Below, piece after piece: positions 31,864 to 46,622 of a DNA stretch of 62,806 bases; position 1 is the first letter of the stretch, and each line of letters starts with the position of its first letter. The position numbers and the translations under genes are program-made. Origin of the DNA: an uncultured Clostridia bacterium (lineage in GTDB: Bacteria; Bacillota; Clostridia; Oscillospirales; JAAYOS01); assembly GCA_947585215.1 (NCBI GenBank), contig CANPWY010000001.1:1-62806 (forward strand), written 5' to 3'. The notes beneath the pieces were generated by a model that had not been told where the DNA came from, made no database searches, and saw nothing but the letters and a program-made list of their open reading frames with translations.

Positions 31864-32874
31864 TCAGTTTGTCTTTTCCTCGATGCCCTTGGAGCGGCGG
31901 CGCTGGTCGTCCACGAAGGAGCGGGTGTCTCCGGCGGTCTCGGGCTGGTCCTCGAAGACGGTGGGCTGGTTGAGGACGATCTGCGGGAACGGGACGTTGA
32001 TGTTGTTCTGGTCGAACATGAGCTTGAGCTCGCGGTTGAGGTCACGCTGTACCTGATAGACGTCCTCCTCGCGGCACTTGGCAACGAAGAGAAGGTCCAC
32101 GCTGGAGGCCGCAAGGGCGTTGACGCCCTTGTAGAACGGGCCGTCGACGATGGAGGGGATGCGCTCGCGGATGCCCTGCAGGTTCTCGCTTATCACCCGC
32201 TCCACATGGGGGATGGACTCGCCATACTCGATGCTGATGTACGACTTGGCCACGGAGAGCTCCTGCGTCTGGTTGACGATGGTGCTGATGGCGCTGTTGT
32301 TGATGATCTTCACGTTGCCGCCGGCGTCCACTATCTTCGTGGTGCGCACGCCGATCTCCTGCACGGTGCCGCGCCAGTCGTCGATGACGACGATGTCGCC
32401 CACCTGATATTCGCCCTCAAGCACGATGAAAAGCCCCGCGATGATGTCCGCCACAAGGCTCTGCGCGCCAAGGCCGATGACGAGAGACAATATCCCGGCG
32501 CTTGCGATGAGCGTCGCGGTGTTGACGCCCCATGCGCCGAGCACCATGAGCGCGCCGGCGATGAGAATTATCCACCGGAGGAAGCTGTTGACGAGCTTTG
32601 CCACGGTGATGCCCCGGTTGTTGCCCCGGAACATGCGGTCAATCAGCCGGCGAATGACCGTGGACAGAACGAACGCCACGGTGATTATCTGGATGCTCTT
32701 TATCAGCGCGGGGATTTTCTGCCAAGCGGTCTGGATAACGTAGTTGCCGCTCACGGAGCGGTTGAATACCGACTCCTCCCCGTAGATGTACGGCGTGAGC
32801 ACAAGCGCCGCCACCGTGACGGTCACAAACAGCGCTATGAGGATGATCTTTCCGATGGATGGTTTCTTTTTCAT
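31864..32874 (-). CDS. small-conductance mechanosensitive channel (MscS family)
   Basis: Three N-terminal TMs, then ..GDIVVIDDWRGTVQEIGVRTTKIVDAGGNVKIINNSAI.., which is the MscS beta-domain signature. Confidence 0.88.
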   Translation of the reverse strand: MKKKPSIGKIILIALFVTVTVAALVLTPYIYGEESVFNRSVSGNYVIQTAWQKIPALIKSIQIITVAFVLSTVIRRLIDRMFRGNNRGITVAKLVNSFLRWIILIAGALMVLGAWGVNTATLIASAGILSLVIGLGAQSLVADIIAGLFIVLEGEYQVGDIVVIDDWRGTVQEIGVRTTKIVDAGGNVKIINNSAISTIVNQTQELSVAKSYISIEYGESIPHVERVISENLQGIRERIPSIVDGPFYKGVNALAASSVDLLFVAKCREEDVYQVQRDLNRELKLMFDQNNINVPFPQIVLNQPTVFEDQPETAGDTRSFVDDQRRRSKGIEEKTN

Positions 32875-32891
32875 TGTCTTTGCTCTCCTTT

Positions 32892-33707
32892 TTATATTTT
32901 GACCTTAGCCGTGTAGAGGACCAGTTCTCTTTGGTGCGCGGATGGGTCGGATGTCTCGCAGGTGACGGTGAAGGTCGCCGTCCGGCCAAGGAGCCCCGCC
33001 CTTATTGCCACGTCTATTTTCTGCTCGTCCGTGGGGCTGCCCGTAAAAACGCACTCGGACACGCGTCCGTCCTCGTCGGTCAGTGTGGCCCGGAAATTGT
33101 CCCACCAACCGTTTTCATCCACAAGGGACATGGTGAAGTGGAAGTACCCGTCCACGTTGCAGGTACACTCGTGCTCGATGCCGAGAAAGCTCGTCACCGG
33201 CGGGAGCTCGCTCGTGGAGACGGTCTGCTCGTCCAGAGTTATATCCCCCAGCGCCGAGGGCATGACCACCGCCACGGTGTAGCTCATCCCGGGGGTGAGC
33301 TCGGCGGCGGTGAGACTGTTTTCTCCTTCCGCCAGTGGGAAGGAACGGCGCGTGAAGTCGTTGTACACGAGGGCGGAGAGGTCGCCGCCGCTTTTCGTCA
33401 CGTCCACGTTGAAGGTGATGGCGGTGTCCGTACTGTCCGAGAAGACGATGTCTGCCTCCGCTCTCGGCGGCAGAAGACCGCCAGCGGCCGCCATGACTAT
33501 GATAGCCGCCACGGCCACAACTCCCACAGCGGGCGGGAGGGTGCGGCCGCGCTTTTTCTTTTTTCTCGGTCTGCCACGTGGGTATTCCTCCGCCGCCCGC
33601 CACTCGGAAACGTCCCTATCCTCCGACGGCAGGGGATTTTCCGGGCAGGAGACGGATTCCTCCGGCGTCCGTGCGTATTCGCTCACGGGGCGATTATATT
33701 CCTCCAC
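32892..33707 (-). CDS. single-pass membrane protein of unknown function
   Basis: Charged N-terminus, TM (VGVVAVAAIIVMAAAGGLL) and a beta-rich ectodomain. Likely start is GTG at 33705-33707 (GGGAGG 8 nt upstream). The track start at 33716 overlaps the upstream stop (GTGA). Confidence 0.6.
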   Translation of the reverse strand: MEEYNRPVSEYARTPEESVSCPENPLPSEDRDVSEWRAAEEYPRGRPRKKKKRGRTLPPAVGVVAVAAIIVMAAAGGLLPPRAEADIVFSDSTDTAITFNVDVTKSGGDLSALVYNDFTRRSFPLAEGENSLTAAELTPGMSYTVAVVMPSALGDITLDEQTVSTSELPPVTSFLGIEHECTCNVDGYFHFTMSLVDENGWWDNFRATLTDEDGRVSECVFTGSPTDEQKIDVAIRAGLLGRTATFTVTCETSDPSAHQRELVLYTAKVKI

Positions 33708-33712
33708 TTCGT

Positions 33713-36700
33713 TCACCTCCCGGCATTGTCTTGCTTTTCGTTTTTACGTCTGAATAGGAGCTGTGCGGCGACGCAGACCGCAAAGAGCGCCGCGAGGCCG
33801 ATAAGGGTCCACCAGCGGCTCGCCGGCGGCTCGCGCAGAGCGTCCAGCTCCGCCGTAAACTCCTCGTAAAGGGCGTCCATGTCGCTCTGAGGGTCGCCGT
33901 CCCTTCCCTCGGCGGGGAGACCGGCGGCCAAGTTCGTGTATGTATCGAGAAGCCCGTCCAAAGCCTCGCCGTCGTAACGGCCGGTCTCTTTTGCCTTAGC
34001 GATCGCGGCCTTCGCGCTGTTCTCGAAGCGCTGGAGGCGTTGCGCCTGCCGTGTCTCAAGCTCCACATCCTCATAGGCCGCCCGGAGGCTGTCAAAGCTC
34101 TCATCCGGGGCGCTCGCCTCAAATTCCACGGCTTTCAGCACGCCGATACAGCGGTCAAAGACCTCACGGACGAACTCGCCGTCATGCTCCCGCAGGAGCT
34201 TTTCCGCCTCGTCCAGAAGCCGGGTCTTTAACTCCTCGAAGGCCGCCCTTTCGGCGCTGTCCTCGCCGGATGTGTCCGGGGACTCCGGGCGGTCGGGTTC
34301 GTCCGAGCCGTCCGTGCCGGAGGAATCGGGCTGCGTGGGTTCTGTGGCGCCGGGTTCGGAGTCGTTTGACTCGGAATCAGTGGGTTCGGAATCAGCGGAT
34401 TCGGAATCGTTAGACTCGGAGTCGTTTGACTCGGAGTCGTTAGGTTCGGAGTCGGTGGGTTCGGGGTTGGTCGGCGTGGGCTCGGCAGACTCGGAGTCTG
34501 CGGGCGTCTGGGCGGAGTTTCTCAGAGCCTCCGCCTCGGCGCGGACGTCCCCAAGGAGACCGGCGACCTCCGCTATCGTTCCGCTGCTCTCTGCGATTTT
34601 TGCGGCCACGCTCTCCCGGACGTCGTCAATGGCCTTGATGACCCGGGCATTGTCGCCGGGCTGTTTCAGAGCTTCCAGCGCCGCATCTACGGCCTCGGCC
34701 AGAGCCGCGTTTGCCGCGGCGCAGTTTTGCGCCGCGCCGATGGCCTCCACAGCCTCGGCGACCCTCGGATCCTCCGGGTCCGTGACGCTCTCACCCGTTA
34801 TGGCGTTGTAGGCGGCGAGGTATTCCGTTTGGGCGGCGGCGATCTCAGTCTTGCGCTGAGCCTCCAAATCGGCTCTCAGCGTCTCTGTCAGCTCCGCCAA
34901 GGACGCGATCTTGCCCTCTCCGGCGGCAGCTGTTGCCTTACTCATGTTCTCTATGACTGTATCTACCAAGGCCTGAACCGCGTCGGAGTCCTCCGTCCGA
35001 TTCACAAGCCCCTCGGCCGCGGAGGTCAGAGCATCCCGGAGGGCGTCGTTCATGGCCGACGTGTCCTGCGCCTGTCCTATGGCCGCCAGAGCCTCCTTCG
35101 CGGGAGAGGCGGCGGGGTCGGGGACGGCGCCCGTGAGGTTTTCCGCACCGTCCAGATATTCTTTCTGAGCCTGTCCTTGGGCGGCCTTCAGGGCAAAGGC
35201 GGTCGCCGCCTCGGCCACTATATCGTCCAGCGTCTGCCGCGCGGCGGCAAGGCCGCGGGAGAGGGTCACGTTTCGGACATCCTCCAACGCCGATGCTTTC
35301 AGCGTCGCAAGCTCCTCCCGAGCCGCTTCGTACATCTCTGTGTTGCCATACTGCGCCGCCAGCGCCTCGATCTGCCTCTCGGCGGCGGCCTTGTAGCTGC
35401 CCAGAGCGGCGGCGTTGGCGGCGGCCTGCTCCGACGCCTGTTGTGCGTCTATTTTGTTCTTAGTCTCCCGAGCCACGGCGGAGAGGTCGGCGAGCGCCCC
35501 GACGGCGTCGGCGGCGTCGACGGCCTCCTGCACGGCGGCTTTGCCTTCCTCCACGAGCTTCTGCACGGCGGAGGAGCTGTTTTTCCAGGCCTCGTCAAGG
35601 AGCGCGTTCACCTTCTCCTGCAGAAGCGCGTTCATCGCCGCGGTATCAGCCGCTTCCGCCAGCGCGAAGGCCGTGTCCACGGCCTCCCGGGCGGCGGCGT
35701 CGGTACCGGTGGGCAGACCTGTATGAGCGTCCACGGGAAGCGCCTCGCCGGTGAGAGCCTCGCGGCTCTCCAGATAGTCTTGGAATGCCTCGCCGGCGTC
35801 CTTGGCGTGGGTCAACGCTCCGTCGAGGGCGCTCACCGCGTCGTCCATCTTATCTGTATCCCCCGCCGCGCCGGCGATGTCGTCATAGGTCTGCTCCAGC
35901 GCCTGCCCGGCCAAAGTTTTGGCGCGGGGCGTCAGGTCATTCGCGGCGACAAAATCGTTATACTTTTTCTGTGCGTTCTGCGCCGGCACGACGGCGTCAG
36001 TGAAGCTCGCCATGGCATCGTCCACGGCCTTCTTATCCGCCGCGCCCTGAACGGAGTTGGCGTAGGTCTCGCAGAAGTCCTCCAGACCCGGCGTTTCCGC
36101 CGCCTTGCTCCGTATCTCCGCCGCCGTCAGGCTCCGGTAGGCAGTGAGGGGATCCGGCAGGGGCACGCTCTCCCCGCTGGACTGGTGACTCGCCAGGGCG
36201 TCATCCACCAGAGCCTTCGCGCCCTCGGGAAGGTCGTTATAGGCGTCGACACCATCGCCGACCGTTTCCTTCGTGCCCATCGGTGCGGGGTTTTGCACCG
36301 CATCCTTCATCGCCGGAAGGTACTCGTCAAGCCACGTATCGGCGGCCAGTCTGTCCCGTGCCGCCTCCAGCTCCGCGAGGCGCTCCCGCTCCAGCTCCGT
36401 CACCTCATTGAGGGCGAGATCGGTCACGACGTCTGTGGTGCCGGTAAACGTACCCTCGAGCGTTGTATATTGCGCGAGAGCGTCGGCGGGGTCAGTGCCG
36501 GCTGCGGCTTTCCACGCAGCATATGCCGCCTCAAACGCCGATTTTTCCGCGTTCTGTGCCGCCGTCAGTGTCGCGAACACGCCGCCGGGGCAAGGAACCG
36601 CCGCGCTGGGTATGGTGTCCGACCCCGCCGGCGTGCGGGCGAGGACAGTGTACTGTGTTTTCTCCAAAAGGCCGGTAAAGGAGAGCCTGCCGTCAGTACC

Positions 36701-39481
36701 CGGCGTCTGCCATGCAGTGTACGCCGTACTTCCGCCGCTTTCATGGGACAGCCGGAATTCAAGACCCCGGTATGCGGCGAGAACGTCGAGCGTGAGGCTC
36801 GCGTTCGTAACGTCCGCGAGCGTCACGACCTCCCCGTCAAACTCCGGGGCCGCCTCCGGTTCGCCCATGTGGACGGTGACGATGTTTTCGTCCACCTTGA
36901 AGGTGGCGTTGCCTCCGTCCAGCGCGGCGTCGCCGGGAAGGGCAGTGCCGGAGAAGGACGTGTAAGCCCCGGCCTCGGTGAGGTATGTGGTGCCCTCCGG
37001 GGCGGTGATGATTTTAGTTTGATTGTCGTAGAGGAGCACGTTGAGTTCGGGACCGGCAAAGTCCTGCTCCACGCCGTCAAACGTGGGCTTGAGCCGCGTG
37101 TCCGTATATGCCGCCGCCGTCGCGCCCGTAAAGTCGATGGTTCCGCTGACGACGCCATCGGTCAGCGTAAGCGTCGCTGTGTGGGTATCGGCCTCCACGG
37201 TGAAGGCGGTAATTGCGGGGTCGCAGGTACCGGAAACCTCCAGCTTGTTTGGCTCGGTCTGGGTAAACTCCAGCGCGTAGCCGCTGCGGGAGAGTGTCGT
37301 CGTGCCGCCTTCCGTCGTCGTGCGGTAAAAGACATTGGTCCCGCCGTCGGGGACGGGCGTGGCGTAGGCGGGCGCTGTACCTGTCCACTTGGCCATCGGA
37401 CCGAAGTATTTTCCCCCGCCGGTGAAATCCAGCGTCAGCTGTGTTCCGGTGTACCCGGTCAGGTCTGCGCATGCCTCGAAAGAGGTCGTGGTGTCCACCA
37501 CAATGCACGAGTCGTCGATGTGGACCTTGCCGGTGATGCCGGGCGTGCCGGTGACGGTGAGCTTGCCTACGGCCTTGCCTTCGATGAAGGGCTTGGTGAC
37601 GGCGCTTGCGTAGTCCTCGGCGCTGTATTTATTATAAAGGTATAGGGCGTTTTTGTCGCCGGTGGTGGCCGCAACCGTGCCGCCGGAGACGGTCAGCGTC
37701 CCGCCCTCCTCAACCGAGAGGACGCCCAAATTGTTGAGAGAACTGTTGCCGGTGATAACCGCAACGCCGGAGACGACAGTCGTTGCCCCGCCGTAGATGG
37801 TCTGTATCGCCGCGCCCTTCTGTTGGGACATACAGCCGATGATGGAACCGCCTGACACGGTGACGGATGGGGCGCGCGTTCCGGCGTAGCTGCCGTTCTC
37901 GTCCGGCTTGCAGACGTTCATGATGCCGCCGCCCTCGCGGGAGTAGCAGTTTTGGATAGCACCGCCGTCCATGGTGAGGACGCCGCCGGCCTCGTTGCGC
38001 ACGCCGCCGCCGTAGTTCTGCGAGCCAAAGCCTGCGCCCGGCGCGGCGTAGTTGTTGTCGTTATTCTGTACGGTCGCGCCGGCTGTGATGTTCAGCGTCC
38101 CGGCGTTGACTATCACCGGGGCGTGGGCGGTGATGCCGGTGTTGCCCGTCACGACCGTCCCCGCGCCGCCGTAGCCGTCGTCGCTGATGCTTATGCCGCC
38201 CGTCCACACGGCTCCTCCGTCTAGAGTGATGTTTCCAAGGGTGAGCGTGGCCCCATCGGCCACCTTCACCAGAGCGTCCGTGTTCCCGTCGGCGCGCTTG
38301 ACGGTGACTGTGACGCCAACGGTCAAGAATTCCGGCACGTTTGAAGTTGGAACGTGCTTTTGCACGCTGGAAAAGGTAATATTTGCGCCGGCCGGAATGG
38401 TCAGCGTCTTGGAAATCAAAACCTCGGTGGTGTCCAGTTCGTGGTTCTGATCGTTGGCGTATGTGGCGAAATACACCGTGCCATCAACCGATGTGCCAAT
38501 GTCGTCTATCGCCTTCTGTGGGTCGGCATAGTCTTTCCATGTGCCGTCCGAAAGCTTAAGCGCCGCCGCGATGGTATCAGCCTGTATCAGCAAAAGTCCG
38601 GGGTCTTGCGGGTCAAACGTATACCCCGGATTTCGCACCAGCAAATTGCTCTTGAGCGTCGCGGCGTCGAGACCTGTGCTGCTTTTTACATATACCACGC
38701 CGCCGCCCAGCTGCGACGCCGGGTTCTCAAACTCCACTGTCAGCTTGCTATCGAGCGTTCCCGTCACGTCCACGGTGCCGCGATTTTCGTTTCCGGCGTT
38801 GCTCCCGTCGTACCCGATGGCGATACCGTCGCCCAAACCGCTGACACTGCCCGCGACCGTGACCGTCGCGCCGTCCTCGAGGTAGATGCCGTTGCCGAAG
38901 GACGCCTCGTTGTTCTGCACGGCGGCGCCGCTCACGGTGACGTACTCGGCGTCGGCGGACACGTACACCGCGCCGCCCTTGCTGCTCGCGTTGTTGCCGA
39001 TGAGCTTCACGCCGCTCCCGATGTCAAGCGACCCGCCGGCGCCCACGTACACCGCGCCGCCGTTTTCGGCCTGCCCGGAGGCGGCGGTGACGGTGAGGTT
39101 GCTGAGCGTCAGCTTGGCGTTCTGGACGGTGAAAGTGCTGAAGTCCCCGGAGCGTGTCAGGGTGGGCTCGACATCTCCGGCTTCTCCCACGACCGTCACA
39201 TTCTTGCCGGAGACAGTGGTAAGACCCGCGTCTACGGCGGCGTTGCCGAGAACGTGTATGGTTCCTCCGCCCGCCGGCAGGGCGTCATACGCGTTCTGAA
39301 GTGATGGGTAGACGGTCTTCTCGCCGTCCTCATCCAGATAGATGCCGCCGGAGAGGGTCACGGTGACGGTGCCGGTCCAGGTTTTGGCCTTCAGGTTCTT
39401 ATTCCCCGCGAAGGAAGCGGTGACGGTGGCGGTGCCCATCTTGCCCCCGGCATGAAAGACGTTCCCTTCAAAGGTGCCCAC
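33713..39481 (-). CDS. giant surface protein, C-terminal 1922-aa portion (no own signal peptide): beta-helix repeats, long Ala/Glu/Gln helical repeats, Ser/Asp/Glu tandem repeat, C-terminal TM anchor
   Basis: GGAVYV/GGGV/GGAIQ parallel-beta-helix-like repeats; about 700 aa of helical repeats; ..ESNDSESNDSESNDSE..; C-terminal WWTLIGLAALFAVCVAAQLLFRRKNEK. It is in frame with the 39512-40552 ORF across a single TAG. Confidence 0.75.
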   Translation of the reverse strand: MGTFEGNVFHAGGKMGTATVTASFAGNKNLKAKTWTGTVTVTLSGGIYLDEDGEKTVYPSLQNAYDALPAGGGTIHVLGNAAVDAGLTTVSGKNVTVVGEAGDVEPTLTRSGDFSTFTVQNAKLTLSNLTVTAASGQAENGGAVYVGAGGSLDIGSGVKLIGNNASSKGGAVYVSADAEYVTVSGAAVQNNEASFGNGIYLEDGATVTVAGSVSGLGDGIAIGYDGSNAGNENRGTVDVTGTLDSKLTVEFENPASQLGGGVVYVKSSTGLDAATLKSNLLVRNPGYTFDPQDPGLLLIQADTIAAALKLSDGTWKDYADPQKAIDDIGTSVDGTVYFATYANDQNHELDTTEVLISKTLTIPAGANITFSSVQKHVPTSNVPEFLTVGVTVTVKRADGNTDALVKVADGATLTLGNITLDGGAVWTGGISISDDGYGGAGTVVTGNTGITAHAPVIVNAGTLNITAGATVQNNDNNYAAPGAGFGSQNYGGGVRNEAGGVLTMDGGAIQNCYSREGGGIMNVCKPDENGSYAGTRAPSVTVSGGSIIGCMSQQKGAAIQTIYGGATTVVSGVAVITGNSSLNNLGVLSVEEGGTLTVSGGTVAATTGDKNALYLYNKYSAEDYASAVTKPFIEGKAVGKLTVTGTPGITGKVHIDDSCIVVDTTTSFEACADLTGYTGTQLTLDFTGGGKYFGPMAKWTGTAPAYATPVPDGGTNVFYRTTTEGGTTTLSRSGYALEFTQTEPNKLEVSGTCDPAITAFTVEADTHTATLTLTDGVVSGTIDFTGATAAAYTDTRLKPTFDGVEQDFAGPELNVLLYDNQTKIITAPEGTTYLTEAGAYTSFSGTALPGDAALDGGNATFKVDENIVTVHMGEPEAAPEFDGEVVTLADVTNASLTLDVLAAYRGLEFRLSHESGGSTAYTAWQTPGTDGRLSFTGLLEKTQYTVLARTPAGSDTIPSAAVPCPGGVFATLTAAQNAEKSAFEAAYAAWKAAAGTDPADALAQYTTLEGTFTGTTDVVTDLALNEVTELERERLAELEAARDRLAADTWLDEYLPAMKDAVQNPAPMGTKETVGDGVDAYNDLPEGAKALVDDALASHQSSGESVPLPDPLTAYRSLTAAEIRSKAAETPGLEDFCETYANSVQGAADKKAVDDAMASFTDAVVPAQNAQKKYNDFVAANDLTPRAKTLAGQALEQTYDDIAGAAGDTDKMDDAVSALDGALTHAKDAGEAFQDYLESREALTGEALPVDAHTGLPTGTDAAAREAVDTAFALAEAADTAAMNALLQEKVNALLDEAWKNSSSAVQKLVEEGKAAVQEAVDAADAVGALADLSAVARETKNKIDAQQASEQAAANAAALGSYKAAAERQIEALAAQYGNTEMYEAAREELATLKASALEDVRNVTLSRGLAAARQTLDDIVAEAATAFALKAAQGQAQKEYLDGAENLTGAVPDPAASPAKEALAAIGQAQDTSAMNDALRDALTSAAEGLVNRTEDSDAVQALVDTVIENMSKATAAAGEGKIASLAELTETLRADLEAQRKTEIAAAQTEYLAAYNAITGESVTDPEDPRVAEAVEAIGAAQNCAAANAALAEAVDAALEALKQPGDNARVIKAIDDVRESVAAKIAESSGTIAEVAGLLGDVRAEAEALRNSAQTPADSESAEPTPTNPEPTDSEPNDSESNDSESNDSESADSEPTDSESNDSEPGATEPTQPDSSGTDGSDEPDRPESPDTSGEDSAERAAFEELKTRLLDEAEKLLREHDGEFVREVFDRCIGVLKAVEFEASAPDESFDSLRAAYEDVELETRQAQRLQRFENSAKAAIAKAKETGRYDGEALDGLLDTYTNLAAGLPAEGRDGDPQSDMDALYEEFTAELDALREPPASRWWTLIGLAALFAVCVAAQLLFRRKNEKQDNAGR
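34352..34500. repeat. imperfect 15-bp tandem repeat (about 10 units) inside the giant surface gene
   Basis: Units of the form GGTTCGGAGTCGTTT / GACTCGGAATCAGTG / GACTCGGAGTCGTTA encode (S/T/P)(N/T/A)DSE pentapeptides on the minus strand. Confidence 0.8.
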
Positions 39482-39511
39482 GTCCGGGTCGCCGCAGGTA
39501 TAGGTGACGCC

Positions 39512-40552
39512 CTACGCTCTCACCGCCGGCGTCAGCGCTCCGCCGCCGGTGAGAGCGTAGGGCGTCGTGCTGTGGGGGTTGACGGTGAAGTCCGTGGGCA
39601 GCTCGCCCGTGGGCTCGGCCTGGGCGATGGACCAGGTGAGGGATTTAAGGCCGGTGGAGCCGTCCTGCCAAGTGTAGCCGGACTTGGGCACCATAAGGAT
39701 CGTATAGCTTCCCGCATCCGTGGCGAAATAATCGCCCACCATGGTGACGTCGGCGCCGGCGGCCGTGTAAATCGGGTGTATCTGCACACTGCCGGTGTAG
39801 ACGGGCGCGTGGGGCTGGATGGTATAGAGGGTGAGCAGCGCCTCCACGGTACTGCTCACCTTGTTCCCCGTACTGCCGCCCCCGCCGGACCCCGAGCTGC
39901 TGGCAACGTGTATATAATTCTCATTATCGGGATAAGAGCTCATGGTGCCATTCATTAGCACTTCAATACCGGTTTTCATAAAGTACGCCCGGTATAGCGA
40001 TGTCGAATAACCGCCGTCTGACAGGTAAGTGTATGCCTTGAAAAATATCCGCCCATCCTCGTCCTTGTAGAGGTTCGAGCCGAGCTGTGCATAGCTCATA
40101 TTGACATAGTCGCTGGCGGTAAATGCCATATGATAGTCAAGCGACACATTGCTGTTCGCACCTTGATACTTCTTGAATTGTCCGGAGTTATTGTATTTAT
40201 ACACCGTCCAGTATTCGCCCGACTGCTTATTGCGCATACCGTAATTGCCGGATATGGGGTTGCTCATAGGGGACACATACGATGTGCTCTCGTTCAGGTA
40301 CAGCTTCACCGCGTTTTGCCCTGTTATGCTTCCCGTTCCCTGGACAGTCTCATAGACGTACACGCTTTGGCCCAGTTCCCAGTATGTATTTAACTCGCCA
40401 AGCTCCGAGGCAGACACCGTCGTCTCCGCGATGGGCATGATCCCGGCGTTTGCCGCTTGGGCGCGGCCGGACACCGCCGACAGCGGCGCCGTCTGCAACG
40501 CCAGAAGGAGCACCATAAGGGTGCTCACAAGCCTCCTGCACGTTTTCTTCAT
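39512..40552 (-). CDS. giant surface protein, N-terminal portion with signal peptide (ends at in-frame TAG)
   Basis: Start at MKKTCRRLVSTLMVLLLALQTAPLSAVSGRAQA (ATG 40550-40552, GGGAGGG upstream). Stop TAG at 39512-39514. The downstream ORF continues in the same frame. Confidence 0.75.
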   Translation of the reverse strand: MKKTCRRLVSTLMVLLLALQTAPLSAVSGRAQAANAGIMPIAETTVSASELGELNTYWELGQSVYVYETVQGTGSITGQNAVKLYLNESTSYVSPMSNPISGNYGMRNKQSGEYWTVYKYNNSGQFKKYQGANSNVSLDYHMAFTASDYVNMSYAQLGSNLYKDEDGRIFFKAYTYLSDGGYSTSLYRAYFMKTGIEVLMNGTMSSYPDNENYIHVASSSGSGGGGSTGNKVSSTVEALLTLYTIQPHAPVYTGSVQIHPIYTAAGADVTMVGDYFATDAGSYTILMVPKSGYTWQDGSTGLKSLTWSIAQAEPTGELPTDFTVNPHSTTPYALTGGGALTPAVRA

Positions 40553-41082
40553 ACCGGGTTTCCCTCCCAATTCGACTGTTTTCGACCGGTACATACAACT
40601 TTTATTATTATACACTCTTTCTCCCATTGGCGCAATCCCAGGGGCAAAAAGTACGCTTATCTCACAGAGCAGGGCTTCCGCGTCCCTTCTGCCACGATAG
40701 CCGCGCTCCGCTTACAAAGTCCTCGCTGTCATCTTGGCACGGAAAATGCCGGCTTCTCTCTCGTTTGCGGAGAGACCGGCATTTCTTGTCTGTTGACAAT
40801 TCATACTATTCCGGTCAGGAGCTTGTCAACCTGAGTTTCAATAACGCACATTGTCCGGAGGAGCCTGAACGGGGGCATAAAAAACACGGCTCGGGAGCCC
40901 GCAAAGTCAAAAGTATGCCCCCGGCAAAATTGATTTTGCGGTTGAATTTTACGGCAAATCGAAGTATGATATGTAGTGAAAGAGCCTGAGTGATATACCG
41001 ACATAAAGCTCATTTCAGCTCAGCGCAACTACGATAACGTCACCTTGCTGATCACCGGTAAAATGTTCGGAGGTGTTTCAAA

Positions 41083-42104: not shown

Positions 42105-45100
42105 TTACTTCACGATGTTCTCGCAGAAGCGCATGAGTATCGTCGCGATCTGAGCGCGGATGGCTCCACCGTTCGGCGCGAGCGTCGTCGCGGTCGTGCC
42201 GTTGATGAGCTCGGTGCCGACAGCCCAGCTCATCGGAGCGGCCGCGTAGCTCTGGACGCTCGCGGCGTCCGTGTAACCGGTGAGGCTGGAGGTCGTCGTC
42301 ACGTCGTACTTCTTGTACGCGGCGTAGCGATAGAGTATCGTCGCGGCCTCCTCGCGGGTGAGATCGCGGTCGGGGCGGAAGGTTCCGTCGCCGTAGCCGC
42401 CGACTATACCGTTCGCCGCCGCCCAGTTGATGGCGTCGGAGTACCACTCGCCCGCCGCTACATCGCTGAACGGAATGTTCTTCGTGACAGCAGGCTCACC
42501 GTCGAGACGATACAGGATAGTCACAAGCATCGCGCGGTTGGTCTGAGCGTTAGGAGCAAATGTCGTCTCGCCGGTGCCGTCCATGAGGCCGTTCTTCACG
42601 ACGTAGTTGATGGCGTCAACATACCACGCGGTCTGGTCGACGTCATAGAACCTAGTGGACGGAGCGGGACGGAACGACGGAGAGCTCGGCTCGGGCTGCG
42701 TGGTGGGCGGGGTAACGACGTCCGCATAGTCCGGCACGCCGTTCTCGTTGTCGTCGATGGCCCAGACGGCGTAGGCGTACTGGGAGCGGGCGTCACGCAG
42801 CCAGCGGTAGGTCTTTCCGGCTGCACCGGTCGGATTGCTGTCCGGGGTGAGGAGCCAGCTGGCGGCTTGAGTTGCGTTGTTAGCTACTCCGTGGACGAAT
42901 TTGGACCAGCCCAGCTGGACGTAATGATGGTACACAGAGCCGTCCGCTTTATAGTCCGTCCGGGTCAGCGTACCGGAGAAGTTGAACTCGATGTAGGCGC
43001 CGATATGGTATTGAGCAGTTGACGAGGGAAGTGTACCTTCGATCTCAGGCGTGACATCGGCCGGCAGTGTGCCGTCCAAATCGGCGTTATCATACCAGAC
43101 AGGTGTGAGCAGCGTGTCTTCCTCAAGATAATCGGGCACATCGTTGCCGTTCTTGTCCACTGCCCAGACGGCGTAGAGGGTCGCACCGCCCTCAAGCAGG
43201 GTTACGGAGTGAGTCAGTTCCGTAGCCTGGGTAATCGGATCAGGTATTTGTGTCAGGCTCCAGCCGACCAGCGTCGCGTCCTGTCTCCGGATCATGTCCT
43301 TGGCCGCATCGACCGAGAACATATCGTCGGTGGTGACGGAGCTGCCTACCGCGTGGAAATGCGAGCATGTGTAGAAGATACCGTCAGTGATCGTCACGTT
43401 AGCGCCGGTCTGAGCCACGCCGCCGTTTACATGATAGCTGACCTGAGCGGAACCGGTCTTATAACTCCCCGCCGCGTAAACAGCGTGGAAGGTGACCGTT
43501 TTATTGCTTTCGGTGATCTCAGTGGCAGGATCCCAAGTGTAATGGAACGCCAGAGAGGAGTCCTTGCTGTGATCGGCGAGAACGCCGAGGTTACTTGCCG
43601 TGCTCCAACCGGCAAAAACGTTTTCGCCACTTACCAGATCGGAGGACTGAGGCAGGTTGTACTGGATGCCGGCAAGCAGGCCGGTCATGTCGGCAGGCTT
43701 GGTGCCGGTGGCGCCGGTGCCGATGTCAAACGTGATGGTGTATTTCGTTTCGTCGTAGTCGGGCTGACCGTTGCTGTTCAGGTCCTGAGCCCACACGGCG
43801 TAGACGACCTTCTCCCGGTCGGTCAGAGTGACCTCCGTCACTATCTTATCGGATTCCGTGGGTGCCGCGGTGAACGGTGTCTCGACATATGTCTCGCTCC
43901 AGCCGATGAACACCACGGGAACGTTATCCAGCGTCTCGCGCCACGCTTCGCCCTCAGCGGGCTTCCACAGGGAGGCGGTGGAGTTGTGGGCGTAGAGGAT
44001 GTGGTCAGCGTCGATCACGGACTGCGGCGGATTCATGGCGCCGGGGTACTGATAGTCGATAGTCACGTACTGGTTTGTGTCGCGCGTCTCGCCGCAGACG
44101 GAGCAGACGCTGCTGGTGCCGATAGTGCCCCAGGTGTGAGCGATGCCGCGGAACTCGACTTCCTGCCCGCAGACAGTGCACTGCGCGGTGAACTCGTCGG
44201 TGCATTTCTTCCCCGTACCGTCTGATTTATAAGTATCGGCAGGGGCGGTGTGCTCGGTCATGGGAATGGTCTCGAAGATGCGGGAAGCCTCGTCGGTCTC
44301 ACCGCAGACGGTGCATGTCTTAACGAGGGTGCGGAGCCCGGTCTTTTCGCATGTGGCAGGTTCGATTGTGTGAGTCGAATCGCCCTTGTAGTCCGCGTCT
44401 TCCTTAAGTTCGCTCCAGGTGTGGTCGGTGGTGGGGATGTCTATCTTGAGGGTCGCGCCGCACTTCTGGCAGGTGAGGGTATGTTCGCCCTTTGTGGTGC
44501 AGGTGGCAGCCTTTGTCACCGACTCCGTCCAGGCGTGGTTGCCGTCCGCACAGAGAGGATCACTGCCCTGACTGATTGTCTCCGTATACGTGCAGCCGGC
44601 ATTTGAGCACTTGAGGCTGCCGTTTTCGCCAGGTACGAGAACATGGGTCGTGGCGGGCGTGGTGACTTCTTCCCACGTAAAATTGCAATCTTGACGGGCG
44701 CATGTATACTCAGTTGTGGTAGGCTCGGTGCAGAGAGTAGGTTTCTTTTCTGTCCCGCTCGACGGCTTCAGATGCCCCAACGCGTCGATCGCTACCTGAT
44801 ACTCATCAAGGCACGTCGTGCAGGTGTAGGTGTCGTAACCCGGCTCGGTGCAGGTGGGGTCTTTATGTCCGTCTGCAACCGCAGCACCCTTAGTATGCTC
44901 ATGGAGCTTATATTCCACTTCGCTCGCGGTGAGGCCGGAAGAGCGGAAGATGTCCTGCATACGCTCGAGGTCGGCTTCGTCCTTATACTCTACAGTGATA
45001 GTGCCGTCAATTTTGGCATTTTCATTTTCTACCGCACGAATATCGCCGCCGGGATAAACGGTGATATTGCCCTTAACAGCGCCATCACCATCAAGGATCA

Positions 45101-46622
45101 GCTCACCGCCGGCCTTGACGTCGATATTGCCCGTAATAATGCCCTCGTTGACAGCATTGCCGCCGACTGCGATGGTAACATTGCCGGTAATTGAACCTTT
45201 ATTGTCAAACCGGCTCTTCTGATCCCCGGTATATCCGGGCATGTGCTCAATGATGACATTGGCCTCGACTTCTCCCTCGGTTCCGTTCGTAAACAGAGAA
45301 CCGTCGTGAATGCGGACTTCACTTCCGGTGATCTTGCCTTCATTGGTGACTTCGGGGAAATAATACTTCCCCGCCTGCTCAAACGACATCAGGTAAAGGT
45401 TTCCGGTGATCGTTCCCTTGGTATCCAGCTTTCCTTCGCCCCAGGCGTAGACGTTACCCCCAAAAGTGAAATTCGGGCCTATATTAGCGGAATTTAAGGA
45501 ACCGATGGCGATATCGCCCCAGCTGTCGCCGTCCCACTTCTCTTGGGTATAGTGGACATTGTCACGGATAGTGCCTCCGTTCAGCACGATCGTATCTCCG
45601 TCGCCGCCGTTCTGAGCTAGAGCGCTGACACGGCAGCCGGTGTTTCCAGAGATCTCGCCGCCATTCATGGTAAACTTGCCTTTGCTGTGGACATAGATGA
45701 CCTGATCCCAAACATTGTTTGGGCCTTTGAGACCGAGATTCTCGTAAATCTTGCCGCCGCTCATGACCAGTTCTCCGCCGATAGCCATGCAGACGACGCC
45801 GTTGCTCTCGTAGCCAACATTTTCATAGATCTCGCCACCCGAGATCGTCATGACAGCTCCTGTATAGATGTCGAACAGTCCGCCGTTAAATGTAGCATAG
45901 TTCTTGTAAATTTTAGCGCCGTCAGATATATTGACTGTGATATTGGAGCTGGTTCCAGTTCCCACGATTACTCCGTGATTACTGGTATTATTGAATAGTT
46001 CCGCATTCTTGATCTCAATCGTCGAATTTTCGGTATTGGAGTAAACGACACCCAAATTATTACCGGGCGCATAGAATCCGCTGATTTTCGTGCCGCCGTC
46101 CAGAGTCAGCGTACCGCCCGCTACAACAATCAGGTTCGCTGTCGAAGTGACCCCATCACTTTGAGCAGTAATGAGAGGTTTTTGGGTAATATTGTGAACC
46201 TGAAATTTTAACGAAGTTGCTTTTGCTTCCTCAAGATTGGTCTCATTAAAGCTCCACTTGCCGCCGGCGTCGATGGTGACGCCTTGGAGCGTCAAAGCGG
46301 CGCCGTTTGAAACGGTGAACATCGTGCCGGTATAGCTTTCGCCGTATTTGACGGTATGGCTGCCGTCGCCGACGATGGTAACATCATGGCTGATGGTCAA
46401 CGCCGCGGTGACCTCAATATCTCCGGTTAAGGTGATCTTGGTGTTGCTTGCTTCATTAAGCGCTGATTGCAACGCCTCAAAATTAGCCGCCGCTGTCTCA
46501 CTTCCGCCGCCTTCCGCCGCCGCGAAGGCAGTTCCCGGTACCAGCGTCAGCACCATGCAGAGCGCCAGAACCAGAGACAATACTTTTTTCCTCATTTTCT
46601 GATCGTGCTCCTTTCGATTCAT
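42105..46622 (-). CDS. giant SLH-anchored surface protein (beta-helix repeats, Cys-rich repeats, 3 C-terminal SLH domains)
   Basis: Signal peptide ..LVLALCMVLTLVPGTAFAAAEGG; repeated CTxxGxxTxTCxxCG modules; SLH repeats (FYDVDQTAWYVDAINYVVKNGLMDG, FSDVAAGEWYSDAINWAAANGIVGG, YTDAASVQSYAAAPMSWAV). The start may instead be MRKKVLS at 46595. Confidence 0.88.
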   Translation of the reverse strand: MNRKEHDQKMRKKVLSLVLALCMVLTLVPGTAFAAAEGGGSETAAANFEALQSALNEASNTKITLTGDIEVTAALTISHDVTIVGDGSHTVKYGESYTGTMFTVSNGAALTLQGVTIDAGGKWSFNETNLEEAKATSLKFQVHNITQKPLITAQSDGVTSTANLIVVAGGTLTLDGGTKISGFYAPGNNLGVVYSNTENSTIEIKNAELFNNTSNHGVIVGTGTSSNITVNISDGAKIYKNYATFNGGLFDIYTGAVMTISGGEIYENVGYESNGVVCMAIGGELVMSGGKIYENLGLKGPNNVWDQVIYVHSKGKFTMNGGEISGNTGCRVSALAQNGGDGDTIVLNGGTIRDNVHYTQEKWDGDSWGDIAIGSLNSANIGPNFTFGGNVYAWGEGKLDTKGTITGNLYLMSFEQAGKYYFPEVTNEGKITGSEVRIHDGSLFTNGTEGEVEANVIIEHMPGYTGDQKSRFDNKGSITGNVTIAVGGNAVNEGIITGNIDVKAGGELILDGDGAVKGNITVYPGGDIRAVENENAKIDGTITVEYKDEADLERMQDIFRSSGLTASEVEYKLHEHTKGAAVADGHKDPTCTEPGYDTYTCTTCLDEYQVAIDALGHLKPSSGTEKKPTLCTEPTTTEYTCARQDCNFTWEEVTTPATTHVLVPGENGSLKCSNAGCTYTETISQGSDPLCADGNHAWTESVTKAATCTTKGEHTLTCQKCGATLKIDIPTTDHTWSELKEDADYKGDSTHTIEPATCEKTGLRTLVKTCTVCGETDEASRIFETIPMTEHTAPADTYKSDGTGKKCTDEFTAQCTVCGQEVEFRGIAHTWGTIGTSSVCSVCGETRDTNQYVTIDYQYPGAMNPPQSVIDADHILYAHNSTASLWKPAEGEAWRETLDNVPVVFIGWSETYVETPFTAAPTESDKIVTEVTLTDREKVVYAVWAQDLNSNGQPDYDETKYTITFDIGTGATGTKPADMTGLLAGIQYNLPQSSDLVSGENVFAGWSTASNLGVLADHSKDSSLAFHYTWDPATEITESNKTVTFHAVYAAGSYKTGSAQVSYHVNGGVAQTGANVTITDGIFYTCSHFHAVGSSVTTDDMFSVDAAKDMIRRQDATLVGWSLTQIPDPITQATELTHSVTLLEGGATLYAVWAVDKNGNDVPDYLEEDTLLTPVWYDNADLDGTLPADVTPEIEGTLPSSTAQYHIGAYIEFNFSGTLTRTDYKADGSVYHHYVQLGWSKFVHGVANNATQAASWLLTPDSNPTGAAGKTYRWLRDARSQYAYAVWAIDDNENGVPDYADVVTPPTTQPEPSSPSFRPAPSTRFYDVDQTAWYVDAINYVVKNGLMDGTGETTFAPNAQTNRAMLVTILYRLDGEPAVTKNIPFSDVAAGEWYSDAINWAAANGIVGGYGDGTFRPDRDLTREEAATILYRYAAYKKYDVTTTSSLTGYTDAASVQSYAAAPMSWAVGTELINGTTATTLAPNGGAIRAQIATILMRFCENIVK

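What the first reader, a model, noticed from the sequence alone, without database searches (positions are those of the whole stretch)
39479..39514. Single in-frame TAG splits a roughly 2,300-aa surface protein inside an Ig-like domain
The ORF 39512-40552 has a signal peptide. The ORF 33713-39481 has no signal peptide and carries the C-terminal TM anchor. They are in the same frame, separated only by TAG (39512-39514) and 10 sense codons. The sequence reads ..GGGALTPAVRA-TAG-GVTYTCGDPDVGTFEGNVFHAGGKMGTATVTASFAGN.., which is a continuous Big/Ig-like repeat. Possible explanations are a recent nonsense mutation (pseudogene), a sequencing error, a population polymorphism or phase switch of a surface antigen, or low-level read-through.
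Basis: seen in the sequence. Interest (0 to 1): 0.6.

Follow-up and report, generated by a model that had tools for sequence, protein, structure and literature searches.

The report
Hairpin-copying mutation truncates giant surface protein
A single stop codon really does cut a 2,279-codon surface-protein gene of a probable rabbit-gut bacterium in two, and it was most likely written by a known replication error that copied 16 bases backwards from just upstream, so this is a freshly broken gene and not a new way of reading the code.

Summary
One TAG (39514-39512, minus strand) is the only stop in a 2,279-codon frame running from ATG 40552, which has a GGGAGGG ribosome-binding site, to the stop at 33713. 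The frame has a signal peptide at one end and a membrane anchor at the other.

- **Relatives:** Four relatives from other assemblies, two of them rabbit-gut Oscillospiraceae MAGs, are uninterrupted at this position. The three with known downstream genes have the same neighbours.
- **New point:** The TAG lies in the 3' arm of a 26-nt inverted repeat (25/26 complementary, 9-nt loop). The 5' arm is the conserved coding sequence T-P-Y-A-L-T-G-G. The 3' arm is its reverse complement, and it replaces 7 nt of the relatives with 16 nt. This adds three codons and the TAG, which is the complement of CTA in CCC-TAC.
- **Mechanism:** The relatives keep only short micro-stems. This is the signature of a quasipalindrome template-switch mutation.
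- **Recoding excluded:** The genome shows no PylS and no tRNA-CUA, and TAG is an ordinary stop. The downstream part has no good start signal and no signal peptide.
- **Domain:** The break lies in a loop of a Big_2-like Ig domain.
- **Age:** There are no further lesions, so the break is recent.

This scan has already noted the same kind of event on other DNA.

The parts
33713..40552 (-). Interrupted gene for a giant secreted, C-terminally membrane-anchored surface protein (2,279 codons including the internal TAG)
   Evidence: Full-length intact relatives P0001, P0002 and P0004. Same downstream neighbours in all three.
40562..40568 (-). Shine-Dalgarno-like GGGAGGG, 9 nt before ATG 40552
   Evidence: read directly from the sequence.
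39515..40552 (-). Upstream fragment of 346 aa: signal peptide, an N-terminal domain with almost no relatives outside its own family, and the first strands of the Ig-like domain
   Evidence: (P0007). Residues 1-240 have no relative outside the family except one weak hit.
39347..39619 (-). Big_2-like Ig domain (about residues 312-402) that the stop interrupts, in the loop before strand GVTYT
   Evidence: Pfam itself is below threshold.
39541..39566 (-). 5' (ancestral) arm of the inverted repeat, GACGCCCTACGCTCTCACCGGCGGCG. It encodes the conserved T-P-Y-A-L-T-G-G.
   Evidence: I1. The same codons are present in the relatives.
39532..39540 (-). 9-nt loop GAGCGCTGA, in the same orientation as in the relatives (not inverted)
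39506..39531 (-). 3' (derived) arm CGCCGGCGGTGAGAGCGTAGGGCGTC, which matches the reverse complement of the 5' arm at 25 of 26 positions
39512..39527 (-). Derived 16-nt block GGCGGTGAGAGCGTAG, which replaces CACGTCC or CACGTCG (7 nt) of the relatives. The net change is +9 nt.
   Evidence: The block matches the local reverse complement at 15 of 16 positions; none of 20,000 shuffles reaches 15.
39512..39514 (-). The in-frame TAG, the complement of CTA in CCC-TAC of the 5' arm
39437..39439 (-). ATG used by the public gene call for the 1,908-aa downstream ORF (P0003). It is preceded only by GGGGG with a 4-nt spacer, and the relatives have CTG (Leu) here.
33716..39511 (-). Downstream 1,932 codons with no signal peptide: rest of the Ig domain, GGAVYV-type repeat regions, long Ala/Glu-rich stalk, acidic repeats and membrane anchor. 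There are no further stops or frameshifts.
33752..33814 (-). C-terminal hydrophobic anchor WWTLIGLAALFAVCVAAQLLF, followed by a basic tail
   Evidence: by inspection.
32892..33716 (-). Conserved 274-aa partner gene of unknown function. Its GTG start overlaps the giant gene's stop (GTGA).

Best explanation
The TAG is a by-product of one replication template-switch (quasipalindrome) mutation. The ancestral coding sequence, still seen in the relatives, held a weak imperfect inverted repeat. Its outer stem was GACGCC/GGCGTC and its inner stem GGCG/CGCC, around unequal interiors. During DNA synthesis the growing strand left its template at the inner micro-stem. It then copied the other arm backwards (the codons for P-Y-A-L-T-G-G). 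It returned to the proper template at GGCGTC. This replaced 7 nt by 16 nt, made the repeat 25/26 complementary, added three codons (A-V-R), changed Thr to Ala, and wrote TAG as the complement of CTA. The result is a recently inactivated or truncated allele of a giant surface protein. The 346-aa N-terminal fragment can still be exported but has no stalk or anchor. The remaining 1,932 codons lack an export signal and a convincing start, so they are probably not made in useful form. Shown here: the sequence anatomy, the intact relatives and the absence of recoding machinery. Inferred: the mechanism of origin, the loss of function, and that the sequence is the true majority state in the sampled population.
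For: The inverted repeat has 26-nt arms, 96% complementarity and a 9-nt loop. As DNA it folds at -38.6 kcal/mol (z -9.6, 0 of 200 shuffles as good), against -9.8 to -18.1 kcal/mol (z +0.5 to -2.2) for the same stretch in four relatives. As RNA it folds at -58.8 kcal/mol. The 5' arm matches the relatives' codons, and the 3' arm is where the window departs from them: 16 nt in place of 7. The derived block matches the reverse complement of the local sequence at 15 of 16 positions; the best of 20,000 shuffled blocks reached 14. The copy carries the window's own GCT codon, seen as AGC, where the three relatives compared there have GCC or GGC, so it was templated from this lineage's own arm. All four relatives are open across the site. 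In the three with known downstream genes the 271-272-aa gene follows, and in the two whose contigs reach far enough MscS follows that. Downstream dN/dS is 0.33-0.41, the same range as between intact relatives. No second stop occurs in 1,932 codons, which limits neutral drift since the break to under about 1.9% divergence at 95%. No tRNA with a CUA anticodon was found, and the best PylS match is 20 bits against a cut-off of 178. TAG ends about 20% of long open frames. Among 90 long hairpins in the 2.0-Mb assembly, this is the only one interrupting a long gene. The mechanism is described in PMC7202029 and PMC8604942.
Against: No reads could be inspected, and no second assembly of this allele exists in the collections searched. 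That the sequence is real and dominant in the population therefore rests on reasoning about how assemblers work. One of the 26 pairs is mismatched, so either the copy was imperfect or a later change occurred. Polarity rests on four relatives at only 62-69% protein identity, with no close sister genome. The genome is a 90.9%-complete MAG with only 31 tRNA genes assembled, so the absence of a suppressor tRNA is not proof.
Confidence: 0.78

Rival explanations
1. Library or assembly artefact. The hairpin-forming block arose by fold-back or template switching in vitro (end-repair, PCR or amplification chimera), or by a graph error at a palindrome, and the organism's real gene is intact.
For: Only one assembly holds this sequence. 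It is a fragmented MAG of 222 contigs. Reads could not be checked. In-vitro polymerases also switch templates at inverted repeats (general knowledge).
Against: The site is 23 kb from the nearest contig end. The sequence leaves and rejoins the gene in frame after exactly one arm, where a fold-back chimera would keep running backwards. The relatives' contigs carry SPAdes-style NODE names, so a de Bruijn assembly is likely here too. Such an assembly can only spell words present in reads, and the true and copied paths share only 4-6 nt, far below any word size (inference). No other long gene in the assembly is interrupted by such a hairpin, so there is no sign of a systematic artefact.
Confidence: 0.13
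2. Programmed decoding of TAG, by pyrrolysine, a suppressor tRNA or context-driven read-through, so that a full-length protein is still made.
For: The frame is perfectly open on both sides. A very stable mRNA hairpin of -58.8 kcal/mol encloses the stop. The tRNA set is incomplete.
Against: No PylS was found above threshold (20 bits against 178). No tRNA-CUA was found. TAG ends about 20% of long frames and is not enriched between same-frame ORF pairs. The relatives have a Ser codon here, not TAG, so nothing at the site is conserved as a recoding signal. The TAG is explained as a passive copy of CTA.
Confidence: 0.03
3. A functional split or a reversible switch. Either the two parts are made as separate working proteins, or the hairpin is a contingency site that turns the adhesin off and on.
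For: A public gene call exists for both parts (P0007 and P0003). An ATG with an upstream GGGGG lies 25 codons after the TAG, where the relatives have CTG. Surface proteins are often phase-variable (general knowledge). A relative lacking this whole Ig domain exists (P0009).
Against: The split falls inside one Ig-like domain, with strands on each side of it. The downstream part has no signal peptide. GGGGG with a 4-nt spacer is a poor site compared with the true GGGAGGG with 9 nt. No simple-sequence tract or invertible segment is present at the site. The replaced 7 nt are gone, so no templated route back exists.
Confidence: 0.04

Closest known systems
Quasipalindrome-associated template-switch mutations (Ripley 1982 model; the E. 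coli thyA hotspot and lacZ QP reporters of the Lovett laboratory, as summarised in PMC7202029)
   Same: An imperfect inverted repeat becomes a more perfect one through a single event. One arm is copied onto the other, with switches at short micro-homologies. The result is a cluster of base changes plus a length change within a coding sequence.
   Different: This is a natural event in an uncultured gut Clostridia genome, inferred from comparison with relatives and not observed in a reporter. The copied tract (16-20 nt, giving a 26-nt arm) is longer than the 4-bp corrections of the reporters, and one pair remains mismatched.
Inverted-repeat arm homogenisation in yeast coding genes (PMC8604942)
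   Same: Template switching between short inverted repeats inside genes produces multinucleotide changes and several neighbouring amino-acid replacements. An arm can grow from 5 bp to 16 bp, as in REG2.
   Different: Those cases were amino-acid replacements in genes that stayed open. Here the copied sequence happens to spell a stop codon and truncates the protein. The spacer here is not inverted.
E. coli gnd with an in-frame TAG inside a perfect 13-bp inverted repeat
   Same: A stop codon and a perfect hairpin were created together by palindrome copying, inactivating a gene (not re-tested here).
   Different: It involves a different organism and gene, and a shorter arm.
Large Gram-positive surface adhesins with Ig-like modules on a long stalk (for example SraP, whose binding-region fragment 4m03 is among the fold matches)
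   Same: Both have a signal peptide, an N-terminal variable region, a Big_2-like Ig module, repeat regions and a long low-complexity or helical stalk. The protein evolves faster than neighbouring housekeeping genes.
   Different: There are no Pfam or NCBIfam hits at all. The protein is anchored by a C-terminal membrane helix, and no LPXTG motif was noticed on reading the translation. The N-terminal 240 aa have almost no relatives among 1.84 billion representative proteins. Membership in any named adhesin family is not shown.

Membership tests
Quasipalindrome template-switch mutation | The derived sequence is the reverse complement of nearby sequence, far beyond chance | tested here: met
   Arms are 25/26 complementary. 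The derived block matches at 15 of 16 positions, against a maximum of 14 in 20,000 shuffles. The fold z-score is -9.6.
Quasipalindrome template-switch mutation | The ancestral state is an imperfect inverted repeat with micro-homologies at the switch points | tested here: met
   L002 keeps both the outer GACGCC/GGCGTC and the inner GGCG/CGCC micro-stems. The other relatives keep them only in part: all four have the CGCC end, three of the four have GGCGTC, and GACGCC is seen in L002 only. The stretch folds only weakly in all four.
Quasipalindrome template-switch mutation | Polarity: the perfect form is derived | tested here: met
   Four relatives share the short open form. The long form carries a stop. 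The copy contains the window-specific GCT variant of the 5' arm. No close sister genome was available.
Quasipalindrome template-switch mutation | The sequence exists in the organism's DNA, not only in an assembly | not testable with these tools
No second assembly was found.
Recent pseudogene or truncated allele | Intact orthologues in the same gene neighbourhood | tested here: met
   P0001, P0002 and P0004 are each followed by the 271-272-aa gene, and MscS follows in the two loci whose contigs reach far enough. L010 is open across the site.
Recent pseudogene or truncated allele | No independent translation and export signals for the downstream part | tested here: met
   There is no AGGAGG-like site before GTG 39481 and only GGGGG with a 4-nt spacer before ATG 39439. 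There is no signal peptide. This is by inspection, not by experiment.
Pyrrolysine or suppressor decoding of TAG | PylS (with PylBCD) and a tRNA with a CUA anticodon in the genome | tested here: not met
   The best PylS_Cterm match is 20.4 bits against a cut-off of 178. There is no CUA anticodon among the 31 tRNA genes found. The genome is 90.9% complete. PylBCD were not searched.
Pyrrolysine or suppressor decoding of TAG | TAG conserved at the site in relatives, or TAG depleted as a terminator | tested here: not met
   Relatives have TCC or TCG. TAG ends 338 of 1,650 long open frames.
Phase-variable (contingency) surface gene | A simple-sequence tract or an invertible segment at the switch point | tested here: not met
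   Only the inverted repeat and chance-level short repeats lie within 330 nt of the site.
Big_2 bacterial Ig-like domain (PF02368) | Score above the Pfam gathering threshold | tested here: not met
   There is no Big_2 hit even at E up to 10. The only Ig-type hit is Big_3_5, at E 0.18.
Big_2 bacterial Ig-like domain (PF02368) | Profile-level homology to bona fide Big_2 repeats, and an Ig-like fold | tested here: met
   hhalign gives 97% probability and E 1e-10 against repeats. These include those of P0013, which scores Big_2 at E 2.4e-28. The best Foldseek matches are Big_2/Ig-like domains, at E about 3e-3 and TM 0.52-0.56, on a model of pLDDT 68. I would call the domain 'Big_2-like' and not a proven member.

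The most novel reading that the evidence does not exclude
The truncation is not a dead end but a selected state. Gut populations of this bacterium would repeatedly switch off, or convert to a shed soluble form, a fast-evolving giant surface protein by hairpin-copying at this quasipalindrome. The site would then act as a one-way mutational hotspot for antigen or phage-receptor loss, with the exported 346-aa N-terminal fragment still active.
Probability: 0.06. Interest if true: 0.45.

Novelty: already known. Interest (0 to 1): 0.2.

Why it matters
The practical value lies mainly in annotation and interpretation.

- **Annotation:** The two public gene calls (346 aa and 1,908 aa) are halves of one broken gene. 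They should not be read as two proteins, as a recoded TAG or as a switch.
- **Mutation process:** This is a clean natural example of a replication template switch writing a stop codon, three extra codons and a 26-bp hairpin in one step inside a coding sequence. Such clusters are easily mistaken for several independent mutations or for regulatory hairpins.
- **Protein family:** The gene belongs to an uncharacterised, fast-evolving family of giant anchored surface proteins, so far seen in only a few assemblies. Two of these are named rabbit-gut Oscillospiraceae MAGs. Its N-terminal domain has almost no relatives, and that may be the more interesting object for anyone studying host or phage interactions of these bacteria.

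Tried and rejected
- **Other assemblies of the same allele:** All four searches came back empty.
  - An exact 28-nt pattern with the stop codon left free found nothing in metagenome contigs.
  - A protein-based scan of metagenome contigs found nothing.
  - The exact cluster look-up shows one contig only.
  - A fragment-length protein search across the site found only the window's own product.
- **Close relatives:** None of the 40 related genomes searched holds the gene, including 5 of the same genus.
- **Family libraries:** Pfam and NCBIfam gave nothing for either part or for an intact relative.
- **Structure of the first 415 mature residues:** The model was too poor to use (pLDDT 42.5), so nothing can be said about the fold of the N-terminal domain.
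- **Solved structures by sequence profile:** There were no significant matches.
- **Simple TCG-to-TAG point mutation:** I first read the lesion this way, after the codon alignment. I dropped this once the inverted repeat showed that the +9 nt, the Thr-to-Ala change and the TAG are one templated block.
- **Genome-wide TAG recoding:** Rejected. TAG is no more common between same-frame ORF pairs (42 of 171) than among terminators (338 of 1,650).
- **Intrinsic terminator:** Rejected, because no T-run follows the hairpin.
Full report
**1. The observation**

On the minus strand the sequence reads GCG CTG ACG CCG GCG GTG AGA GCG TAG GGC GTC ACC TAT ACC, with TAG at 39514-39512. Translating 40627-33713 gives 2,305 codons with a single internal stop. 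The ORF list gives 39512-40627 upstream and 33713-39481 downstream in the same frame. The downstream ORF's first possible start (GTG) lies ten sense codons after the TAG. The true start is ATG 40552 (MKKTCRRLVSTLMVLLLALQTAPLSAVSGRAQA..., a Sec-type signal peptide by inspection). It is preceded by GGGAGGG with a 9-nt spacer. The C-terminus ends in a hydrophobic helix and a basic tail.

**2. One gene, intact elsewhere**

A search of 5.8 billion proteins, restricted to residues 150-700 of the read-through product, found three full-length relatives. P0001 (2,280 aa), P0002 (2,266 aa) and P0004 (2,246 aa) are 58-63% identical over 99-100% of that region. The only other strong hit was the window's own downstream ORF.

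All three run straight through the site. Each is followed by the same 271-272-aa gene, and the mechanosensitive-channel gene follows that in the two loci whose contigs reach far enough, as in the window. A further relative in the species-representative genomes (L010) is open across the site in the stretch fetched.

The records of two of these relatives are titled 'uncultured Oscillospiraceae bacterium isolate Lapin-0xx', that is, rabbit-gut MAGs. The window's genome is a 2.02-Mb MAG of 222 contigs, 90.9% complete.

**3. What the lesion really is**

The codon alignment shows that the window does not differ from its relatives by one base. Between CTG ACG CC and GGC GTC ACC, the relatives have 7 nt (CACGTCC or CACGTCG). 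The window has 16 nt (GGCGGTGAGAGCGTAG), a net gain of 9 nt.

The repeat search then showed a 26-nt inverted repeat with a 9-nt loop and 96% complementarity at 39506-39531 and 39541-39566. On the coding strand:

- **5' arm:** GACGCCCTACGCTCTCACCGGCGGCG. It encodes the conserved T-P-Y-A-L-T-G-G and resembles the relatives.
- **3' arm:** CGCCGGCGGTGAGAGCGTAGGGCGTC. It is the reverse complement of the 5' arm at 25 of 26 positions and contains the whole derived block.

The TAG is simply the complement of CTA in CCC-TAC. The copy also carries AGC, the complement of the window's own GCT codon, where the three relatives compared there have GCC or GGC. It was therefore templated from this lineage's own 5' arm.

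The statistics support this:

- The derived 16-mer matches the local reverse complement at 15 of 16 positions. In 20,000 shuffles of the block, the best local match never exceeded 14.
- As single-stranded DNA the stretch folds at -38.6 kcal/mol (z -9.6). The same stretch in four relatives folds at -9.8 to -18.1 kcal/mol (z +0.5 to -2.2).
- Of the micro-stems, L002 keeps both pairs (GACGCC/GGCGTC and GGCG/CGCC). The other relatives keep them only in part: all four have the CGCC end, three of the four have GGCGTC, and GACGCC is seen in L002 only.
- The loop keeps its original orientation.

This is the defining anatomy of a quasipalindrome-associated template-switch mutation. In such an event the nascent strand uses the other arm as template and returns, leaving a more perfect palindrome. 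PMC7202029 summarises Ripley 1982 and the E. coli thyA and lacZ work. PMC8604942 describes the same process in yeast coding genes, including an arm growing from 5 to 16 bp. One event accounts for the three extra codons (A-V-R), the Thr-to-Ala change and the stop.

**4. Is it an artefact?**

No second assembly of this allele exists in any collection I could search.

Several points argue against an artefact:

- The site is mid-contig.
- The sequence rejoins the gene in frame after exactly one arm.
- The true and copied paths share only 4-6 nt. A graph assembler could not jump between them without reads that spell the junctions. This is inference; SPAdes-type NODE names are seen for the sister MAGs.
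- In a scan of the whole assembly for hairpins with arms of at least 18 nt, 90 were found. Nearly all are intergenic, and this is the only one that interrupts a long gene (382 and 1,930 open codons on its two sides).

I put an in-vitro or assembly origin at about 0.13.

**5. Is the TAG decoded?**

- ARAGORN finds 31 tRNA genes, none with a CUA anticodon.
- The PylS C-terminal model scores 20 bits against a cut-off of 178.
- TAG terminates 338 of 1,650 open frames of at least 300 codons. It is not enriched between same-frame ORF pairs (42 of 171).
- The relatives have Ser codons at the aligned position.

Nothing suggests recoding.

**6. Are the two parts separate proteins?**

The break lies inside one small domain. 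The stretch from about residue 312 to 402 matches repeats of giant surface proteins on both sides of the break (for example query 306-388 against P0008). One of the matched proteins (P0013) scores Pfam Big_2 at E 2.4e-28 on the aligned stretch. A profile-profile comparison with such repeats gives 97% probability and E 1e-10.

A five-sequence AlphaFold model of the domain (pLDDT 68) is all-beta. Its best matches are Big_2/Ig-like domains: T5 pb6, Big_2-CBM56, phage decoration domains and lambda gpV. These score E about 3e-3 and TM 0.52-0.56.

Pfam itself does not reach threshold, so 'Big_2-like' is the right wording. The stop sits in the loop before strand GVTYT.

The downstream part has no signal peptide. 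Its candidate starts have poor ribosome-binding sites: there is none before GTG 39481, and only GGGGG with a 4-nt spacer before ATG 39439, which is the start used by the public gene call P0003.

**7. Age**

Downstream of the stop, dN/dS against the relatives is 0.33-0.41, the same as among the intact relatives. With dS of at least 0.47, however, this says little about the recent past.

More telling is that 2.8% of possible single-base changes in the 1,932 downstream codons would create a stop. The absence of any second stop therefore limits neutral drift since the break to under about 1.9% divergence at 95% (median 0.4%). The break is recent. The alternative that the downstream part is still useful has no other support.

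**8. The gene itself**

- **Libraries:** No curated family library recognises any part of it.
- **N-terminal domain:** Residues 1-240 have no relatives among 1.84 billion representative proteins beyond the family itself and one weak hit.
- **Variable and conserved parts:** Against the relatives, the block of residues 1-43, which holds the signal peptide, is 91% identical to one relative. Residues 44-330 are the most divergent part (27-64% in 50-residue blocks). Much of the rest is 60-90% identical.
- **Rate:** Overall the protein (62-69% identity) and its 274-aa partner (69-78%) evolve much faster than the adjacent MscS gene (88-92%). This is what one expects of an exposed surface protein.
- **Repeat region:** After the Ig-like domain come GGAVYV-type repeat regions. 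These are weakly similar (E 7e-6) to the pectate-lyase-like adhesive region of the neighbouring SLH-anchored giant protein.
- **Stalk and anchor:** A very long Ala/Glu-rich region follows, then an acidic repeat tract and the membrane anchor (the architecture beyond the Ig domain is by inspection).

**9. Verdict**

The lesion is a known kind of mutation seen in a natural setting, and the most likely consequence is loss, or shedding, of a giant surface protein in this population. This scan has already noted the same kind of event on other DNA, for example an E. coli gnd with a TAG in a 13-bp perfect repeat. Interest is low. The main value is a correct reading of the two gene calls, plus a clean example for those who study template-switch mutagenesis.

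Noticed in passing
Own genome G000, e.g. C15:19838-19896, C130:4355-4413, C101:2976-3031, C22:6090-6142, C125:2276-2324, C182:1768-1816, C13:12678-12724: A dispersed family of about 50-nt near-perfect hairpins with 3-4-nt loops. The stem interior varies, but most share the stem base (TTCGC...GCGGGC / GCCCGC...GCGAA) and a 3' tail of the type GCCGYCGGAC (some variants, e.g. ACCACCGGAC). They look like a REP-like or terminator-like repeat family.
   Followed up: no
P0009 (257-aa protein from the representative library): A relative of the giant protein in which the Ig-like domain carrying the TAG here is missing altogether (..PYALTGG|IYLMEGG..), as if deleted between the flanking T/S-G-G codons. 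Its tail looks out of frame. This domain may be a recurrent site of rearrangement.
   Followed up: no
window 39835-40447 (about residues 36-240 of the giant protein): The N-terminal domain has essentially no relatives among 1.84 billion representative proteins outside its own small family; the one weak hit is P0031 at E 2.6e-4. AlphaFold could not model it (pLDDT below 50).
   Followed up: partly
window 31864-40552 compared with L002, L006 and L007: The locus shows mosaic divergence. The first 43 residues of the giant protein, which hold the signal peptide, are 91% identical to one relative, while the next 290 residues are only 27-64% identical in 50-residue blocks. The giant protein and its 274-aa partner evolve much faster than the adjacent MscS gene.
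   Followed up: partly
window 42105-46622 (-): A second giant surface protein (1,505 aa) has three SLH domains and a pectate-lyase-like adhesive domain. It shares weak similarity (E 7e-6) with the repeat region of the interrupted protein.
   Followed up: partly
window 32892-33716 (-): A conserved 274-aa gene with one predicted membrane helix and no family match. Its start overlaps the giant gene's stop (GTGA), so the premature stop 5.8 kb upstream may also lower its expression.
   Followed up: no
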